This document shows, in pieces, positions 12,972 through 31,638 of a stretch of DNA of 32,000 nucleotides; position 1 is the stretch's first letter, and each line of letters starts with the position of its first letter. Made by a program: the position numbers and the translations under genes. Source of the stretch: Candidatus Heimdallarchaeota archaeon (GTDB taxonomy: Archaea > Asgardarchaeota > Heimdallarchaeia > JABLTI01); assembly GCA_030614005.1 (NCBI GenBank), contig JAUWKS010000027.1, forward strand, positions 11,140 through 43,139, written 5' to 3'. The notes beneath the pieces are model-generated. The model searched no databases and had not been told where the DNA came from. It was given only the letters and a program-made list of their open reading frames with translations.

Positions 12972-14552
12972 CTATCCATTCCATAGATTAAAGGGTAAAT
13001 TATCTTTTTCTTTATCTCCACTTGAGAATCCTCTTTTTTCGCTTTTTACTGCATTCTCAAAAGAACCATATCGTTGTATAATCTGATCTTCAAGTGGTTT
13101 TGCGATATCTACTGCTGCTTTAACATGTTTTGAGGTAATTCTATCATCTCCATTAGTTATTGCAAGATCACCTGCTACTTTAATTAAACCTGCAAGTTCT
13201 CTAAGTCGTAACGTCAGAGATGCTTCTTCTTTATCAGCATTTTCAGCAATATATCTAGCATATTTAATTATATCATTGATGCCTCTACGATCCATTGCGG
13301 GAATTTTGTTATCTCTTAGAATTTCTTGAGCAATGAATTGCATTAATTTCATTCTATTTACTTCGTTATCTGGCATTGCAGTTTTCAAGAGGATTTCATA
13401 ACCATCACCTTGAATCCTAGAGCGCATAGGTGGTAATATTTTCGGAAGATCTGCAAGATTACAAGCAGCAACAAGAACGAAATCACAAGGAACATTATCT
13501 ACTCTTACTGATGCACCGGAGCTTTGAGGATTTCTACCAATGATTGGGGATTTCCGTTCTTGCATAGCTGTTAGTAATGATCTTTGTAAAGAACCAAGTT
13601 GGGAAATTTCATCTACAAATAAAACTCCTTGATGAGCTTCGTGTATACTTCCTGCAACTACTCGTTTGTATGGTGGAGTGCCCAATTTATGATGCCCACC
13701 ATATGGATCATGTAAGCAATCGCCAAGCAATTCAGTTGCACTTGCACCAGTTGCTTGAACAAAAAGAGATCTCCTAATAGGAACTAGAACTTTCATTGGT
13801 TTAGTTCCTTTTTTAGCTTGAGAAAGTTCAATAGCTTCTTGGTCAAATACTCTAATATTGTTCCCTGCTTCTTCAAATAAAAGGATCTCTTCTCTGCCAT
13901 CAGGAAGATAAATTGCTTTTGATACTTTAGACCCATCTGTTGTTTTTGTCGTGAAGGGTGAAAGTGAAAGCAAATCGCCAAATCTAGAAGATGATTTCTT
14001 ACGTTTTGATTTATTACAATGAGGACATAAGCGTGATTCTGGGATGGAAAAACCAGAACAATGTTCACACCCATAACCTAATTTTACTGTAACATCAAAT
14101 GGTGCTTTAGAGGGATGAATTAGTTTTCCAAATTCACTATTTGTTGTTGTTTGCTGTTTTCTAAGACGAAGTTCGTGTAATTGTTTAATTTCAAAAAATG
14201 GTCTTTCGGGGTTTTCTGGATTATGCACAATCCAAATTTCTTCTGATGGTTGTCCTAAGTGAAAAGATAATGCTTGTGCTATCATTGACTTTCCAATCCC
14301 TGGGGGGCCAATAAGTAACAAATTTCTTCTTTGTTGAGCAGCCATACGAGCTATTTTAATTGCAAAATCTTGACCGATTATCCTTTTCAGTGGGTCTTTT
14401 GGAATAGGAATATCAAAAGTATCTTCAATATCTCGTAATCTTACTATTTGTGACTCATCTCGAGATTGAGCTATCCTAGCATTCTCATTATGAGTATTTG
14501 TAGATGACCGTTCTGAATGAAAATCTTGACCTCGAGACATTAGTGTGCACAA
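12972..14552 (-). CDS. LonB-related AAA+ ATPase with Zn-ribbon insert, lacking protease domain and TM segment
   Basis: IPKDPLKRIIGQD, Walker A GPPGIGKS, LLGDCLHDPYGG, GSIHEAHQGVLFVDEI (Walker B), VPCDFVLVAACN, LRLRELAGL. The ORF ends at 526 aa with no Ser-Lys protease domain. Confidence 0.88.
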   Translation of the reverse strand: MCTLMSRGQDFHSERSSTNTHNENARIAQSRDESQIVRLRDIEDTFDIPIPKDPLKRIIGQDFAIKIARMAAQQRRNLLLIGPPGIGKSMIAQALSFHLGQPSEEIWIVHNPENPERPFFEIKQLHELRLRKQQTTTNSEFGKLIHPSKAPFDVTVKLGYGCEHCSGFSIPESRLCPHCNKSKRKKSSSRFGDLLSLSPFTTKTTDGSKVSKAIYLPDGREEILLFEEAGNNIRVFDQEAIELSQAKKGTKPMKVLVPIRRSLFVQATGASATELLGDCLHDPYGGHHKLGTPPYKRVVAGSIHEAHQGVLFVDEISQLGSLQRSLLTAMQERKSPIIGRNPQSSGASVRVDNVPCDFVLVAACNLADLPKILPPMRSRIQGDGYEILLKTAMPDNEVNRMKLMQFIAQEILRDNKIPAMDRRGINDIIKYARYIAENADKEEASLTLRLRELAGLIKVAGDLAITNGDDRITSKHVKAAVDIAKPLEDQIIQRYGSFENAVKSEKRGFSSGDKEKDNLPFNLWNG

Positions 14553-20552: not shown

Positions 20553-22061
20553 ATGGCAGATAAAGACATTTATGCTTACGCTCAGTTAGCGAAAAAAACA
20601 GGAGATGAGATTATCGATCCGACTTCAATTGAAGCAAAGAGAACAGGAAAGTTCAATGTTTTCCTTTGGTTTTCATACGATGCTGCAGATACCTACTTCT
20701 CACAATTAATAATTAGCCTTGCTTTTACACCACTAGCTCTTCTGCTAGGTATTCAAATGGGATGGTCATATACCTTCACATTTGTGATCGTTTCACTCTT
20801 TATGGCACTTTCAAACTTGTTAATAGCTGCTCTTGGACCAATTATGGGTTCAATATCAGATATTGCTGGTAAACGAAAAGGAGCAGTAATAATAGTTGCA
20901 AGTATAATGGTTGCTTCAACAGCAGCAGTAACTCCCTTTGTAAGTTTTGGTTCACCCATGTTCAAATTCTGGATGGCAACAATTCTATTTGTAATCGCAA
21001 ACTTCTGCTATCAAGCAGGTAGAATGTTTTATGATGCCCAAATCCCTTTCATTGCAAAAACAGAACAACGCTCATTTACGCAAGCTTTAGGAGGATCTCT
21101 TAGTTTCATAGGGTCTGTTCTTGGAGTTGTGACAAGTATGGTTTTAGTGGCTCTCTTTGGTAAGCCAACACATATTGATACTGCTATTTGGGCAAATGAA
21201 TCAATAAAACCTGAAGACATTGAATATGGTGGTCTTCAATGGATGTTTCTTATTGGTGCAATTGTTATAGTAATTATGGCGTTGCCGTATCTTTTTCATA
21301 AAGAAGTTGAAACTCCATCAAAAGTCACTTTGAAAGATAATTTTAAACAATCGCGACAAATTTTCCGTACAACAGGAAAGGAAATTCTTAGAGATCGAAA
21401 TTCCTTGCTCTTCTTTCTAGGTTGGTTCTTTATTACCGATGCTGCGAACACTGCAATACTCTATATGACTGTGACCATTTAAGGAGCTGTAGGATATGAT
21501 TTAGCAACTACTAATTATGTCCTTTTCGCAGGCATTGGTGGAAGTTTAATCTTTGCTGTTATCACAGGACTTTTTATGAACAAATATGGTCCAAAGTTAA
21601 CTTTTATTGTTAATGGCATTTCATGGGCAATAGCTGTTCTAATAATTATTTTCTCCGGCTGGGAGATTGGTAGTATTGTGACACCAAAATGGTTAGTGTT
21701 TTTCGGTGCGTTCTTTGTTGGCATTGGTTTTGGAGGTATTTGGATTGTCGGGAGACAATTCATTATGGTACTTGCTCCACCTTCGAAATTAGCACAGTAT
21801 GGGGGTTTCCAAAAAATCGCTGGACGAGTTAGTGCTATTGTTTCTCCACTCATGTATGCTGGACTTATCTTTGCATTTGAACCACAATTCGGCATTCGTA
21901 ATGCCTATCGTTTTGCTTTAGCTTCACTAATAATATTTTTCATAATTGGCGTGGGGTTAATTTCATTCATTAGAGATCCACACAAACGGTACCTCGCTGG
22001 TGAGCGTGCACCTTATGTAGGACTTTACGATGAGCAACAGGATGAAGAAGTAGCAAAATAA
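20553..22061 (+). pseudogene. MFS transporter, UMF1/Atg22-like family, interrupted by an in-frame TAA at 21480-21482
   Basis: ORFs 20553-21482 and 21576-22061 share one frame, and the gap reads GAVGYDLATTNYVLFAGIGGSLIFAVITGLF. Motifs WFSYDAA, GSISDIAGKRK, FYDAQIPFIA and AQYGGF..IAGR. About 502 codons in total. Confidence 0.85.
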
Positions 22062-22653: not shown

Positions 22654-23343
22654 ATGGCTCGAACAGCTCTCAAATGGATACTTGGTTTAATTTTATCGGT
22701 TATTGGATTCTTTTTTACAGGTGTAGTGGTTGTCTTCTATTTTTTGGGAAGGAATACGCTGGCTGGATTAATAACTGCTATAGTTATTGGATCAGTTGCA
22801 TATATTCCTGGTTTAATTCTAATAATACTTGCATTAATCGATGGAGTGCACAATATCTTTGACTTGCGGATTTCTAAACTTCTTGAGGAATATGATCGGA
22901 TCACCCCAACAGAACTTGCTGAAAAAGCTCGAAGTCGAGAGGATAAAATAGAAGCATCTGTTTCAAGGATTATTGAGAAAGGGCTAATTATTGTCTACTT
23001 TGATAAGGCTACAGGTGAATTTGTTACACAAGAGGGACGCGCAATAGCTGAACGTATAATGGGAATTATTATCTCCAAAAGACGTGTTACTTTGCAAGAA
23101 CTATGTGATGAAACAGGAATGAAAGAAGACGAAGTCAAACGCATCGTAATCGGTATGGAGAAACGAGGGTTGTTTGATGGTACATATGATTGGAAAAGTG
23201 GCAAAATCCTCTCTCGCGAAGGTACAACCCAGCTGAGTGTTGCTAAAACTAGTTGTCCACATTGTGGGGCCCATTTAACTGAACCTCCTCTGCCAGGAGA
23301 AGAAATTGGATGCAGTTATTGTGGAAAAATAATAACTGGTTAG
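22654..23343 (+). CDS. Membrane-anchored protein with two PCI-like winged-helix domains and a C-terminal Zn ribbon
   Basis: Two N-terminal TMs, RITPTELAEK...IIEKGLIIVYFDKATGEF, RVTLQELCDE...EKRGLFDGTYDWKSGKI, then CPHCGA...CSYCG. Confidence 0.75.
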   Translation: MARTALKWILGLILSVIGFFFTGVVVVFYFLGRNTLAGLITAIVIGSVAYIPGLILIILALIDGVHNIFDLRISKLLEEYDRITPTELAEKARSREDKIEASVSRIIEKGLIIVYFDKATGEFVTQEGRAIAERIMGIIISKRRVTLQELCDETGMKEDEVKRIVIGMEKRGLFDGTYDWKSGKILSREGTTQLSVAKTSCPHCGAHLTEPPLPGEEIGCSYCGKIITG

Positions 23344-24101: not shown

Positions 24102-25328
24102 ATGTCTGATAAAATGTCCGAACTTCTTAACAACCTGCAATCAAAAGATGCAACGAAGAGAGTTAAAGCAGCCAAAAATTTAGGCAATTTAGGCGATCGT
24201 CGCGCTACTTCTGAATTAATGATTGCTTTGAAAGAATACCCTGATGTAGAAACCCGACTTGCTACTGCAGAAGCTTTAGGGAAAATTGGTGATAGGGTTG
24301 CAACAGAGCTTCTTATTGATATCTTTAAGGGTGATCCTGATAAAAAAGTTAAAACAGCAATGTTAATGGCATTAGGTGAACTCGGAGATGATAATGCTTA
24401 TGATACTTTGCTGGATGCAATTCTAAATGAAAAAATTTTGGCAATTCGTGAAGCAGCCATAATTGCGATTGGTAAATTGAATAACAAAGCTGTTGCCGAA
24501 GAGCTTCAGAATATTGTCTCTACAGAAAAAAGTACTAAACTAATTGTTGCAGCAATCAAATCACTCTATCTTTTGGGCGAAAGAAAAGCTGCACCAATGT
24601 TCAAAGAACTATTAGAGTCATCTAATAACCCAACAATCCGAGCAGAAGTTGCTGCGGGTTTAGGACGAATTGGTGGACGTGATGCATTAACACCACTAGT
24701 TGCTACTCTCAAAAAGGAAAAGGATGAAGGTGTTAGAGAATCCATAGTAATCTCTCTTGGCCGAATAGCTAACACCACCTCAGTAGCTCCACTGATAGAT
24801 GTTTTGAAAAATGATGAAAGTGCGGTTATCCGAAAAAGAGCTGCTTGGTCTCTTAGACGAATCAAAGATAGTCAAATATCAAGTGTTCTTTTGTCTCAAT
24901 TAGATAAAGAACCTATTGAAGCTGTTAAACAAGAAATTATTGCCTCCCTTGGAAAACACAAAGAAAGGAAAGCAATAAATGCAATAGTTGATGCTTTAGC
25001 AAATTCTAAAGACGATCAAGTTAGACGAGCTGCGGCAATTGCTCTTGGAGACATCAATGATAAAAAAGCGGTAGAACCTTTACTTACAACTCTTGAGTCA
25101 GATAAATCTGCTGAAGTAAGAAAATATGCAGCCTGGTCTCTTAGCAAATTGAAAAGTATCAATTCTAAGGAAATATTAATTGGTTATCTACAAAAAGAAA
25201 AGGATGATTTGGTTAAAGAAATGATTCAAACGGCAATCAATGCAATAGATAATGCCATCAAACAAGCGGAAGCTGAAGCCGCAAAAGCAGTAAAAAGAGC
25301 TAAAAAGGAAGAGTATTATTACTATTGA
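24102..25328 (+). CDS. HEAT-repeat (PBS-lyase/HEAT_2 type) protein with 12 repeats and C-terminal YYYY
   Basis: A 31-32-aa unit (VR..AA.ALG.IGD..A...L...L) repeated 12 times. The gene ends GAA GAG TAT TAT TAC TAT TGA. Confidence 0.92.
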   Translation: MSDKMSELLNNLQSKDATKRVKAAKNLGNLGDRRATSELMIALKEYPDVETRLATAEALGKIGDRVATELLIDIFKGDPDKKVKTAMLMALGELGDDNAYDTLLDAILNEKILAIREAAIIAIGKLNNKAVAEELQNIVSTEKSTKLIVAAIKSLYLLGERKAAPMFKELLESSNNPTIRAEVAAGLGRIGGRDALTPLVATLKKEKDEGVRESIVISLGRIANTTSVAPLIDVLKNDESAVIRKRAAWSLRRIKDSQISSVLLSQLDKEPIEAVKQEIIASLGKHKERKAINAIVDALANSKDDQVRRAAAIALGDINDKKAVEPLLTTLESDKSAEVRKYAAWSLSKLKSINSKEILIGYLQKEKDDLVKEMIQTAINAIDNAIKQAEAEAAKAVKRAKKEEYYYY

Positions 25329-25353
25329 TTTTCCTTTTTTTTTCTATTATTTC

Positions 25354-25797
25354 TTATAGTAATTTCTCTTGTTGAAAATCGCCAATCAGTTCTCCAAATG
25401 ATATACCAACGCTCGATGCGTGTGTAAGGGTTATTTTGTAATTAGTCCCATTGCGTACACTCATAAGTTGATCAGGAACGTGTAAGAATGAAAATCCTTT
25501 GCGACGATTTTTGAACTTTATACCAACATAGGGTTCAAAGCCTATTCTTTTACTAAATACAAGTAAACCAGTGATTTGCTCCTCACTAATGTATAGGGTA
25601 TCTTTTCGAATGGTTTTAATTTCGAGAACAAAGAATTTATTTCTCTTAACTGAACCTGCAATAAGATCTGGTCTTGGAAGAATTGTGCCTCCTCCAGAAG
25701 CCGGAGCACGTAGAACGGCAAACCCTGCTTCCCAGAACATATGTACTAAATCTCTTTCTGCTTTAACACCACTTGAAGACAAAGATACACCCATCAT
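25354..25797 (-). CDS. hjc: Holliday junction resolvase Hjc
   Basis: G..AERDLV..FWEAGFAVLRAPASGG, PDLIAG, LEIK (PD-(D/E)xK). Start placed at ATG 25797 (or 25794), about 25 nt downstream of a TTTTTATTT TATA-like box. Confidence 0.93.
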   Translation of the reverse strand: MMGVSLSSSGVKAERDLVHMFWEAGFAVLRAPASGGGTILPRPDLIAGSVKRNKFFVLEIKTIRKDTLYISEEQITGLLVFSKRIGFEPYVGIKFKNRRKGFSFLHVPDQLMSVRNGTNYKITLTHASSVGISFGELIGDFQQEKLL

Positions 25798-25952
25798 AAT
25801 GTACAATAATCCAAATAAAAATTCTAGGGAGAGATGGTTAAAGAATTTGTGGGAAATCGTATTACCAAAAGTTATATTTGAAATTAGCACGATAAAACTT
25901 GTAGTTACATCTTCTATATGTTCAAAGGTTTGATCTAAAAATAGAGAATTGA

Positions 25953-26037
25953 TCTGGAAAGCGACAGCCCAAAAATCGACCATTGTTTCAGGGAAAACAA
26001 TGGGGAGCGCGTATGGACGGGCTAATCGCAATCCAGA
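25953..26037. ncRNA. Candidate structured RNA (nested hairpin), family not recognised
   Basis: Four nested stems: TCTGGA/TCCAGA, GCGA/TCGC, AGCCC/GGGCT and CCATTGTTT/AAACAATGG. GC-rich relative to its flanks. Confidence 0.4.
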
Positions 26038-26050
26038 ATGCAGGTGAACA

Positions 26051-26077
26051 GGTCTCATAATGAGACCGGTTTTTTTT
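26051..26077 (+). terminator. Hairpin plus T8
   Basis: GGTCTCA-TAA-TGAGACC (26051-26067), GG, then T8 (26070-26077). Confidence 0.5.
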
Positions 26078-30645: not shown

Positions 30646-31638
30646 CTAATAGTATAGCACTTTTTCAGGATCAATTTTAGCGTCATCGTGGACTTCCCAA
30701 ACAATTTTCTTTTGTCTTTTCTTGGACGACTCGAAGATTTTATCTTCTTCTTCTAATTGTTTCATATGGGCTTTCAGTGTTAAATCTTGTACTAGATATT
30801 TCCACGGCTTATACCATTCAATACCTAAACTGAGATTTACTTCTTCTCGTATTTCCTCAAATGTGCTTGCACCATTGGTTGTGAGAGTTACTAAAATCGT
30901 CTCTTCAAAATTATTATGTGTGCTGAGTGCTTGTTTTATTAATTCTTTAGCCTGCCCCCCAAGATAAGCACCATCGTAAGCTGGACAAAGCATATCAATA
31001 TTTGCTCGAGAGATAAATGCTAAAGCTTTCTCTCTTTCAGCGGCACTGCCAGTGAGATCAATCAAATAATTACTGAAGCTCATTGGGTAGATGTAGATTT
31101 CTGCACCAGCAAAAATTGCCTTTTGTTTTGAACTGAAAAACATTGAATGACCAGCACTAAATCCAGGATAACAGACAGTGAAGATTGTTGTTTCTCCTAA
31201 TTGGAATTTATCACTATCATCAAAAACAGCGTGTGGTTTTACTCCCTTTAACCTTTCCCAGGGTTCATAGGAAAATTTGCCACCTTTTTTATTTGGTTCA
31301 AAGTGTTTCTCAGGAAGATACAAATAGGGTTTTCTGATAGTATCCTCGGCGTCTTTATGACAAACTAATTCAGCTTTAGGAAACATTTGCTTTAATTTCA
31401 CAGCACCACCGATTGCATCATGGTGCTCTCGAGTAAGGAAAATATATTTCACATCTTTAGCTTTTCTTCCAGCATGATCAATACATTCACCAATTTCATG
31501 CTGAATCGTGTTGCGGATGCCTGTATCAATAATGGCTATTTTTTCATCCATTACTATGTAAACTGCATTTCTTTCCCCTCCAGGACCGTGCTCACCATAC
31601 ACATTCCAAATGCCATCATTAATTTCATTAAATGTCAT
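30646..31638 (-). CDS. Metallo-beta-lactamase-fold protein with degenerate metal ligands and C-terminal winged helix
   Basis: NAVYIV..KIAIIDTG, LTREHHDAIGG, YPGFSAGHS, IFAGAE, LCPAYDG, and a C-terminal helix-turn-helix with AHMKQLEEEDKI. Confidence 0.85.
   Translation of the reverse strand: MTFNEINDGIWNVYGEHGPGGERNAVYIVMDEKIAIIDTGIRNTIQHEIGECIDHAGRKAKDVKYIFLTREHHDAIGGAVKLKQMFPKAELVCHKDAEDTIRKPYLYLPEKHFEPNKKGGKFSYEPWERLKGVKPHAVFDDSDKFQLGETTIFTVCYPGFSAGHSMFFSSKQKAIFAGAEIYIYPMSFSNYLIDLTGSAAEREKALAFISRANIDMLCPAYDGAYLGGQAKELIKQALSTHNNFEETILVTLTTNGASTFEEIREEVNLSLGIEWYKPWKYLVQDLTLKAHMKQLEEEDKIFESSKKRQKKIVWEVHDDAKIDPEKVLYY

What the first reader, a model, noticed from the sequence alone, without database searches (positions are those of the whole stretch)
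24102..25328. HEAT-repeat protein ending in YYYY: candidate Blm10/PA200-like 20S proteasome activator
Twelve HEAT repeats are followed by a charged helical spacer (QAEAEAAKAVKRAKKEE) and four terminal tyrosines. The last three residues fit the HbYX gate-opening motif of PAN, Rpt2/3/5 and archaeal Cdc48, and specifically the YYX form of Blm10/PA200, which are HEAT-solenoid ATP-independent activators. Four aromatic residues at the end of an otherwise Tyr-poor protein look selected. It is far smaller than Blm10, so it might act as an oligomer. I know of no described prokaryotic HEAT-type activator.
Basis: partly seen in the sequence, partly recalled or inferred. Interest (0 to 1): 0.72.

Follow-up and report, generated by a model that had tools for sequence, protein, structure and literature searches.

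The report
HEAT-repeat protein with conserved tyrosine tail
An uncultured Heimdall (Asgard) archaeon encodes a 408-residue HEAT-repeat scaffold whose last residues, Tyr-Tyr-Tyr-Phe/Tyr, never change in its relatives and match the tails that plug regulators into the 20S proteasome, but binding is only weakly supported in silico and the protein is not a relative of Blm10/PA200.

Summary
Window 24102-25328 (+) is a real 408-aa gene: 12 PBS-type HEAT hairpins, one long C-terminal helix (369-407) and a KKEEYYYY end.

- **Tail conservation:** every orthologue found (58-87% identity) ends E-[ED]-[YL]-Y-Y-[FY]. The two tyrosines before the last residue are invariant. Tyr codons differ synonymously and the 3' flanks diverge.
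- **Distribution:** the module occurs in only one family of Heimdallarchaeia, 12 of 12 genomes. It was found in none of the other 387 Asgard genomes searched.
- **Specificity:** none of the 17 HEAT paralogues in this genome has such a tail, and only 1 of 120 generic HEAT relatives does.
- **Not Blm10/PA200:** there are no Blm10 Pfam domains, it is five times smaller, and its nearest folds are alphaRep, PP2A-A and a Halobacterium taxis HEAT protein.

Proteasome docking is plausible.
- The genome's alpha subunit keeps the pocket Lys and the gate residues.
- In this family the proteasome partners PAN ([FY][FY]x) and the PbaA-like protein (FYT) also carry aromatic-aromatic-X tails.
- A co-fold with three alpha subunits gave weak support (0.40 against 0.00 for controls).

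YYF-COOH is also the classic HtrA/DegS PDZ ligand, and the genome encodes PDZ proteases. There is no gene-neighbourhood link to the proteasome.

The parts
24102..25328 (+). Complete CDS of the 408-aa HEAT-repeat protein, stop codon included
   Evidence: ORF list and translation. Orthologues of 58-87% identity cover residues 1-408 in all 11 other genomes of the same family.
24102..25205 (+). Residues 1-368: alphaRep/PBS-type HEAT solenoid, 11 full hairpins plus helix A of the 12th
   Evidence: Pfam HEAT_2, HEAT_PBS and HEAT are all above their cut-offs. AF2 model has pLDDT above 90 across this part. Foldseek and PDB profile hits are to alphaRep proteins, PP2A-A, CpcE and YibA.
25206..25313 (+). 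Residues 369-404: one continuous helix. The first half (to about 386) is helix B of repeat 12. The second half (KQAEAEAAKAVKRAKKEE) is a charged Ala/Glu/Lys spacer that projects beyond the solenoid
   Evidence: DSSP on the AF2 model gives H369-407; pLDDT falls from 91 to 80 along it. E390, E392, K395, A396, R399 and E403 are invariant in 12 orthologues while neighbouring positions vary.
25314..25325 (+). Residues 405-408: aromatic C-terminal tail YYYY (YYYF in most orthologues, LYYF in the sister genus)
   Evidence: Y406 and Y407 are invariant; position 408 is F or Y; position 405 is Y or L. TAT/TAC and TTT/TTC vary among orthologues and the sequence after the stop diverges.
25329..25353 (.). 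25-bp T-rich spacer between the stop codon and the convergent hjc gene; probable transcript end
   Evidence: The sequence after the stop reads TTTTCCTTTTTTTTTC. Oligo-T as an archaeal terminator is established knowledge and was not tested here.

Best explanation
This is a cytosolic alphaRep-type HEAT scaffold specific to one lineage. Its concave surface probably holds a partner or cargo that is not yet known. Its C-terminus acts as a docking plug. A rigid charged helix holds the free end E-E-Y-Y-Y-F/Y-COOH away from the solenoid, and this end inserts into an inter-subunit pocket of the homoheptameric 20S alpha ring in the HbYX manner. In that mode the carboxylate pairs with the pocket Lys and the penultimate Tyr contacts the Pro17-turn Gly. 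The protein would then be a proteasome-tethered adaptor or regulator, convergent with Blm10/PA200 in principle (HEAT scaffold plus YYX tail) but not related to it. It is more likely a tether or recruiter than a dome-shaped gate opener.

Shown: the gene, its fold, the conservation of the tail, its restricted distribution, and the presence of intact alpha-ring pocket residues.

Inferred: docking to the 20S, any effect on the gate, and the existence of cargo.
For: 1. The tail is invariant where HbYX requires it. Y at -2 and hydrophobic Y at -3 are kept in all orthologues from 58 to 87% identity, whereas the preceding helix varies at many positions.
2. Synonymous codon changes inside the tail and divergent 3' flanks show selection on the protein, not on the DNA.
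3. The tail is special to this orthologue group. None of the 17 other HEAT paralogues in the genome has it, and only 1 of 120 generic HEAT relatives does.
4. The tail sits at the low-confidence end of a projecting helix and does not fold back in the model.
5. The genome has one alpha and one beta subunit. The alpha keeps K65 (equivalent to Lys66 of Thermoplasma), Y10, D11, P19, G21, E27 and Y28, which are invariant across 21 Heimdall sequences. PMC7077846 reports that both tyrosines of the PA200 YYA tail bond to Gly19 and Glu25 of alpha5.
6. Lineage concordance. In this family the proteasome partners also carry aromatic-aromatic-X tails: PAN [FY][FY][VTS] and the PbaA-like PAC2 protein FYT. 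Sister families use G[FY]I, EY[LTF], LYV and MF[VL].
7. Co-fold of residues 337-408 with three alpha subunits: score 0.40 (runs 0.40, 0.43, 0.36) against a best control of 0.00. The runs share at least 34% of contacts and the partner pLDDT is at least 70. That mark was reached by 58 of 80 solved complexes and 2 of 110 mismatches. At 0.60 or under it was reached by only 7 of the 80 solved complexes and by both mismatches. The tool therefore calls it weak support, and its calibration holds only roughly for this job design.
Against: - There is no genomic link to proteasome genes. The gene is monocistronic, lying between a divergent GNAT gene and a convergent hjc gene, in every relative. The proteasome genes are on another contig.
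- A monomer with one tail has little avidity for a seven-pocket ring. Known archaeal partners are oligomers, and Blm10 adds a large dome interface.
- All four terminal positions are constrained, including the last one. HbYX leaves the last residue free, so something more than, or other than, the alpha pocket may be selecting.
- HbYX-like ends occur in 1.4% of ORFs by chance.
- The co-fold pass is of the class that is 'more often wrong than right unless the guess was likely beforehand'. No contacts were released, and such passes can come from the model's memory of solved HbYX complexes.
- YYF-COOH is equally the textbook ligand of HtrA/DegS PDZ domains (PMC8545111).
Confidence: 0.38

Rival explanations
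1. The tail is a ligand for a PDZ domain, or a C-terminal degron read by a PDZ protease. In this reading Y-x-F-COOH docks into the PDZ domain of the genome's HtrA-like protease, or into the M61 or S2P PDZ proteins. That would either regulate the protease or mark the HEAT protein for turnover.
For: - The usual ending Y-Y-F-COOH is identical to the tripeptide used to activate E. coli DegS through its PDZ domain, which recognises a YxF signature (PMC8545111).
- The last residue is constrained to F or Y in all orthologues. PDZ ligands require this and HbYX does not.
- The genome encodes an HtrA-type protease with PDZ (C21), an M61-like peptidase with PDZ (C114) and an S2P-type protease with a weaker PDZ match, 22 bits against a cut-off of 27 (C30).
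- The HtrA N-terminus shows no obvious signal peptide, so it may be cytosolic like the HEAT protein.
Against: - The penultimate Tyr is invariant, whereas PDZ recognition tolerates variation at that position.
- The HtrA-like gene is interrupted by a stop or frameshift in this assembly.
- PDZ proteins are universal, whereas this tail is confined to one family, so no specific pairing is evident.
Confidence: 0.2
2. The tail binds something else, or binds the protein itself. One option is insertion into the concave groove of a second copy, giving head-to-tail oligomers. Another is docking onto an unidentified partner specific to this family. The resemblance to HbYX would then be coincidental.
For: - alphaRep and armadillo-type grooves are classic peptide and protein binders; the nearest folds are binders of this kind.
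- The nearest reviewed protein, H. salinarum OE_2401F, is named a taxis protein.
- Both the protein and its tail are restricted to one family, as expected for a partner confined to that lineage.
- The rigid spacer prevents intramolecular binding but would allow intermolecular binding.
Against: - No partner is suggested by gene neighbourhood.
- An acidic-aromatic free C-terminus on a spacer is the typical format of plug-in-pocket motifs, and in archaea the 20S pocket is the only well-documented receptor for such motifs (my own knowledge).
- The co-fold with alpha scored above the controls.
Confidence: 0.22
3. The tail has no docking role. It would be a helix cap or stability element, or a membrane-interface anchor, on a generic HEAT protein.
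For: HEAT_PBS proteins are abundant and mostly uncharacterised; there are 18 in this genome. Aromatic residues favour membrane interfaces (my own knowledge).
Against: - Strict conservation of four terminal residues with synonymous codon change is more than a helix cap needs.
- The tail is the least ordered part of the model.
- The two preceding glutamates and the free carboxylate argue against insertion into anionic membranes.
Confidence: 0.1

Closest known systems
Blm10 / PA200 (PSME4), the eukaryotic monomeric ATP-independent proteasome activator
   Same: Both have an all-helical HEAT-type scaffold and a C-terminal Tyr-Tyr-X tail. The penultimate Tyr, and in PA200 also the preceding Tyr, engage the alpha-ring pocket (PMC7077846, PMC13022661).
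   Different: - There is no sequence kinship: no Blm10 Pfam domains at E <= 0.01.
- It is 408 aa with 12 regular 31-residue repeats, against about 1840-2140 aa of irregular repeats closing into a dome.
- It is an open solenoid with the tail on a long helical stalk.
- Foldseek's top 50 PDB matches do not include Blm10 or PA200.
- It is restricted to one Heimdallarchaeia family, so it is at most convergent.
PBS-lyase HEAT-like repeat / alphaRep family (PF03130, PF13646; for example MTH187 1TE4, YibA 1OYZ, CpcE 5N3U and the artificial alphaRep binders built from this consensus)
   Same: The repeat sequence and fold match: the PDB profile search gives E 1e-68 to 1e-10 and Foldseek identities are 27-32%. 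This is the family the solenoid belongs to.
   Different: None of these carries the projecting C-terminal helix plus aromatic tail. Scores against the lyase and NblB equivalog models lie far under their cut-offs: 99 against 300 and 86 against 330 bits.
HEAT repeat-containing taxis protein OE_2401F of Halobacterium salinarum (B0R4J2)
   Same: It is the best reviewed structural match (E 7e-11, 406 aa, 23% identity). It is an archaeal HEAT_PBS protein of the same size that its entry name ties to taxis.
   Different: The similarity is only at repeat level. No orthology was shown and nothing was tested here about its C-terminus. It lives in a different lineage and context.
Archaeal HbYX-bearing 20S partners: PAN, Cdc48/VAT, PbaA/PbaB (PAC2 family)
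   Same: They share a free C-terminal hydrophobic-Tyr/Phe-X tail. In this very family PAN ends [FY][FY][VTS] and the PbaA-like protein ends FYT, the same aromatic-aromatic-X flavour as YY[FY].
   Different: The folds are unrelated (AAA+ rings, PAC2 fold). Those proteins are oligomers that present several tails, and they are conserved across archaea rather than confined to one family.
OMP-type YxF-COOH ligands of HtrA/DegS PDZ domains
   Same: The terminal tripeptide YYF is identical to the DegS-activating peptide (PMC8545111).
   Different: That system is bacterial and periplasmic. Here the protein has no signal peptide and the host is an archaeon. The invariant penultimate Tyr is not a PDZ requirement.

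Membership tests
Blm10/PA200 proteasome activators | Sequence signature of the family (Pfam Blm10 N-terminal, middle and PA200 C-terminal domain models) | tested here: not met
   The Pfam scan at E <= 0.01 lists only generic HEAT, Arm and similar models; no Blm10/PA200 model appears.
Blm10/PA200 proteasome activators | Single chain of about 1800-2100 residues whose HEAT-like repeats close into a dome covering the alpha ring | tested here: not met
   The protein is 408 aa. The AF2 model is an open 12-hairpin solenoid with a projecting helix. The top 50 PDB fold matches are alphaRep, PP2A-A, catenin and importin.
Blm10/PA200 proteasome activators | C-terminal Tyr-Tyr-X with conserved penultimate Tyr | tested here: met
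   Y406 and Y407 are invariant in 12 orthologues and in the further metagenome loci; the last residue is F or Y.
Blm10/PA200 proteasome activators | Binds the 20S alpha ring and stimulates peptide hydrolysis | tested here: inconclusive
   The co-fold with three alpha subunits scored 0.40 against a best control of 0.00, graded 'weak support' by the tool, with no contacts released. Activity cannot be tested in silico.
HbYX-motif ligands of the 20S alpha ring (functional class) | Hydrophobic-Tyr-X at the extreme free C-terminus, conserved in orthologues | tested here: met
   Protein-level selection is shown by synonymous codon variation.
HbYX-motif ligands of the 20S alpha ring (functional class) | The host encodes a 20S whose alpha subunit keeps the pocket Lys and the Tyr8/Asp9/Pro17/Gly19/Glu25/Tyr26 cluster | tested here: met
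   The alpha and beta genes lie at G000:C112:36297-37650. K65, Y10, D11, P19, G21, E27 and Y28 are invariant in alignment A2. The equivalence to Thermoplasma numbering is my own reading of the alignment.
HbYX-motif ligands of the 20S alpha ring (functional class) | Oligomeric or large-interface presentation that gives avidity for the ring | not tested
   The oligomeric state is unknown. The monomer model shows one tail on one stalk.
PBS-lyase HEAT-like repeat / alphaRep-type proteins (PF03130, PF13646) | Repeat models above the curated cut-offs and the matching fold | tested here: met
   HEAT_2 scores 200.7 bits (cut-off 27.7) and HEAT_PBS 127.3 bits (cut-off 20.9). alphaRep structures match at E down to 8.5e-68.
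Phycobilin lyase CpcE/F and NblB equivalogs | Score above the NCBIfam equivalog cut-off | tested here: not met
   NblB scores 99.1 against 300 bits and CpcE 86 against 330 bits. The matches are at repeat level only.
HtrA/DegS-type PDZ ligands (YxF-COOH) | Aromatic-x-Phe free C-terminus and a PDZ protease in the same compartment | tested here: inconclusive
   The motif is present as YYF in most orthologues and YYY in the window and two metagenome loci. PDZ proteins are present. Binding and compartment were not tested, and the HtrA-like gene is split in this assembly.

The most novel reading that the evidence does not exclude
One family of Heimdallarchaeia independently evolved a small HEAT-repeat partner of the 20S proteasome. 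It would plug a Tyr-Tyr-X tail, held on a rigid helical stalk, into the alpha-ring pockets and use its solenoid to bring cargo to, or to position, the core particle without ATP. That would be the first prokaryotic HEAT-type proteasome regulator, a convergent counterpart of Blm10/PA200 in the archaeal lineage closest to eukaryotes.
Probability: 0.3. Interest if true: 0.75.

Novelty: new variant of a known kind. Interest (0 to 1): 0.5.

Why it matters
ATP-independent regulators of archaeal proteasomes are few; the PAC2/Pba proteins are the only ones I know of. No HEAT-type regulator was found for any prokaryote in the paper library searched.

If the tail does dock to the 20S, this protein would show that the 'solenoid plus YYX plug' solution arose more than once. 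It would also give a small, tractable model of a single-tail proteasome adaptor from an Asgard archaeon: 408 aa against a homoheptameric ring.

Its restriction to one family means it says nothing direct about the origin of PA200. If the tail instead feeds a PDZ protease or another partner, it remains a clean example of a strictly conserved C-terminal docking motif on an archaeal repeat scaffold. That would be of narrower interest.

Tried and rejected
- **Word-indexed protein search, C-terminal region (residues 330-408).** It found nothing. The whole-protein search gave only generic HEAT proteins at 36% identity or less.
- **Exhaustive representative search with the orthologue profile.** It was swamped by giant multi-repeat HEAT proteins and held no orthologue. 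The exact sequences are not in the 15-billion-protein collection. These libraries therefore could not widen the family. GTDB genomes and JGI contigs did.
- **CAP-Gly reading (EEY/F tail as in tubulin/EB1).** No CAP_GLY match was found in the genome. The control genomes did not ring either, so the search is uninformative. I dropped it for lack of any support.
- **PIP-box reading, prompted by the neighbouring hjc.** By inspection, the residues before the aromatic pair do not fit Qxx[ILM]xx[FY][FY].
- **Deoxyhypusine hydroxylase.** The similarity is only at repeat level, and by inspection there are no His-Glu metal motifs.
- **Gene neighbourhood.** Synteny is conserved only because the relatives are close. 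It offers no operon partner.
- **HEAT paralogues near the proteasome and PAN genes.** One lies next to the beta-alpha genes and one 3 kb from PAN. The first adjacency holds only within the genus, and neither paralogue has an aromatic tail. I do not use them as evidence.
- **Expression.** No RNA holder was listed among public runs. DNA holders are cold-seep and marine-sediment metagenomes.
- **Earlier notes of this scan.** No look-alike was found by sequence.
- **Complex prediction.** Only one job was allowed, so the PDZ and self-association rivals could not be co-folded.

Full report
**What is there.** The window comes from a 3.6-Mb, 126-contig genome bin that is 90% complete. The records of its relatives are titled Candidatus Heimdallarchaeota, and G+C is about 34%.

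Coordinates 24102-25328 (+) hold a 408-codon ORF ending KKEEYYYY-TGA. Pfam reads it as PBS-type HEAT repeats: HEAT_2 at 3.5e-60 and HEAT_PBS at 1.4e-38. NCBIfam gives only sub-threshold, repeat-level matches to NblB and CpcE/F.

An AlphaFold2 model built on 12 orthologues is confident, with mean pLDDT 93.9 and pTM 0.85. It shows 12 helical hairpins. The last helix continues unbroken from residue 369 to 407. Confidence falls to about 57 over the last eight residues, and the tail does not fold back.

The body is poor in aromatic residues: 5 Tyr, 2 Phe and 2 Trp in 404 residues, against 3.6% Tyr and 5.1% Phe genome-wide. Only 2 of 2156 long ORFs end in three aromatic residues.

**Is the tail selected?** All ten other genomes of the genus and the single genome of the sister genus carry a full-length orthologue at 58-87% identity.
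- The endings are EEYYYF or EDYYYF in ten genomes, EELYYF in the sister genus and EEYYYY in the window.
- Six JGI metagenome loci, some redundant with those genomes, end EEYYYF or EEYYYY.
- Y406 and Y407 are invariant, while the helix just before them varies at many positions.
- The Tyr codons switch between TAT and TAC, the last codon between TTT, TTC, TAT and TAC, and the stop codon and 3' flank diverge. Selection therefore acts on the peptide.

**How wide is the family?** A search with the last 57 residues over 399 Asgard genomes found the module in 12 of 12 genomes of one family. Elsewhere there was only one marginal hit, at E 0.002.

Other families of the class have only generic HEAT matches. 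Large protein libraries contain no orthologue. Among 120 generic HEAT relatives only one ends in HbYX. Among the 18 HEAT proteins of this genome only this one has an aromatic end. The tail is thus a specific invention of one lineage.

**Context.** The gene stands alone. A divergent GNAT acetyltransferase gene lies upstream and is missing in one relative. A convergent hjc gene starts 25 bp after the stop, across a T-rich spacer. Synteny is conserved, but these genomes are close kin, so it carries little information. The proteasome genes lie on another contig.

**Does it look like Blm10/PA200?** Only in principle. PA200 is a dome of about 240 kDa whose C-terminal YYA enters the alpha5-alpha6 pocket. 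Both tyrosines bond to the pocket, at Gly19 and Glu25 (PMC7077846; PMC13022661).

Here no Blm10 model matches. The protein is five times smaller and open. Its structural neighbours are alphaRep binders, PP2A-A, catenins and importins. By sequence profile the neighbours are alphaRep, CpcE, YibA, MTH187 and deoxyhypusine hydroxylase. Among reviewed proteins the best match is the Halobacterium taxis HEAT protein OE_2401F. Membership in the Blm10 family is rejected. 'Works like' remains open.

**Evidence on proteasome docking.**
- The genome has one beta and one alpha subunit.
- Across 21 Heimdall alpha sequences the pocket Lys (K65 here) and the gate cluster Y10, D11, P19, G21, E27 and Y28 are invariant.
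- The genome's PAN (OB plus AAA domains) ends FFV, Cdc48 ends TFI, and the two PAC2 proteins end FYT and FMI.
- Within this family PAN ends [FY][FY][VTS] and the PbaA-like protein always ends FYT. Sister families use G[FY]I, EY[LTF], [NI]F[AI], LYV, MF[VL] or SFV.
- Aromatic-aromatic-X is therefore this family's flavour of alpha-ring tail, and YY[FY] fits it. This is circumstantial and rests on one lineage.
- A co-fold of residues 337-408 with three alpha subunits, both given as alignments, scored 0.40 (runs 0.40, 0.43, 0.36) against 0.00 for all three controls. The runs agree in at least 34% of contacts and the partner pLDDT is at least 70.
- The tool's mark was reached by 58 of 80 solved complexes and 2 of 110 mismatched pairs. 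At 0.60 or under it was reached by only 7 of the solved complexes and by both mismatches. The verdict is 'weak support', the calibration holds only roughly for this design, no contacts were released, and memory of solved HbYX complexes may contribute.

**What speaks against it.**
- There is no neighbourhood link to the proteasome.
- There is a single tail per chain.
- The last residue is constrained, which HbYX does not require.
- HbYX-like ends have a 1.4% background.
- An equally literal match exists to another motif. YYF-COOH is the peptide that activates DegS through its PDZ domain, which reads YxF (PMC8545111).
- The genome encodes an HtrA-like protease with PDZ, an M61-like peptidase with PDZ and an S2P-type protease with a weaker PDZ match. 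The HtrA-like gene is interrupted in this assembly.

**Most likely mechanism.** I put 0.38 on an HbYX-type tether. In this model the solenoid binds an unknown partner. The charged helix acts as a stiff spacer; its projecting part of about 20 residues spans roughly 30 A, which is my estimate from helix geometry. The free aromatic end plugs into one of the seven identical alpha pockets.

Because there is only one plug and no dome, I expect recruitment or positioning rather than efficient gate opening, unless the protein oligomerises. The rivals are a PDZ ligand or degron (0.20), another partner or self-association through the groove (0.22), and no docking role (0.10).

**Novelty and score.** The paper library holds no prokaryotic HEAT-type proteasome regulator. 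A first-stage note of this scan flags another HEAT-like solenoid ending -WKFYY in a different genome. That note is unchecked, and the sequence look-up found no look-alike.

If binding is real, this is a new variant of a known principle, convergent with PA200 rather than ancestral to it. Interest is 0.5: a clean, conserved and easily testable feature in an Asgard lineage, but with only weak computational support for the exciting reading and a narrow distribution.

Noticed in passing
G000:C112:38580-39449 (L095:5581-6447) and G000:C35:70898-71803 (L096:6899-7801): Two other HEAT_PBS paralogues lie close to proteasome-system genes. A 289-aa one sits about 1 kb beyond the beta-alpha gene pair, with a HAD hydrolase gene between them, and this arrangement recurs in all genomes of the genus. 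A 301-aa one sits 3 kb downstream of PAN. Neither has an aromatic tail. With 18 paralogues in 3.6 Mb this could be chance.
   Followed up: partly
G000:C35:66571-67791 (PAN) and relatives L108-L137; G000:C123:45230-45997 (PAC2) and relatives L219-L248: Heimdallarchaeia PAN and PbaA-like tails are not canonical HbYX. The penultimate residue alternates between Tyr and Phe, even within one genus (FFV, FYV, FYS, YFV). The 'Hb' position is Gly, Glu, Asn or Ser in some families. Each family has its own tail flavour.
   Followed up: partly
window 20553-22061 (+): The MFS transporter gene is in two ORFs here (309 aa and 161 aa). Relatives have one ORF of about 1.5 kb at the same place, so this is a frameshift, a pseudogene or an assembly error.
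   Followed up: partly
window 25354-26058 (-): The mechanical 234-aa ORF for Hjc is over-extended. The Pfam Hjc match starts at residue 100, and in most relatives the ORF at this place is 141-150 aa. The true start is therefore probably near 25800.
   Followed up: no
window 30646-31638 (-): A 330-aa protein, described by a first-stage note as a degenerate metallo-beta-lactamase fold, also ends in an HbYX-like -KVLYY. I confirmed the C-terminus but did not check its conservation in orthologues.
   Followed up: no
G000:C21:20047-21100 (-): The HtrA-like serine protease with a PDZ domain is interrupted. The N-terminal strand (MFQGLEKNIVEVVDDVLPCVVSVSTQY) is in one frame and ends at a stop. The catalytic domain continues in another frame. 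No signal peptide is evident.
   Followed up: partly
window 22654-23343 (+): This membrane-anchored protein has a winged-helix region that passes the Pfam PCI cut-off (38.9 bits against 22), a second winged helix and a C-terminal zinc ribbon. It is conserved at 65-92% identity in all relatives, two genes upstream of the HEAT gene.
   Followed up: no
window 12972-14552 (-): The Lon-like AAA+ ORF next to dnaG ends -LPFNLWNG here.
   Followed up: no
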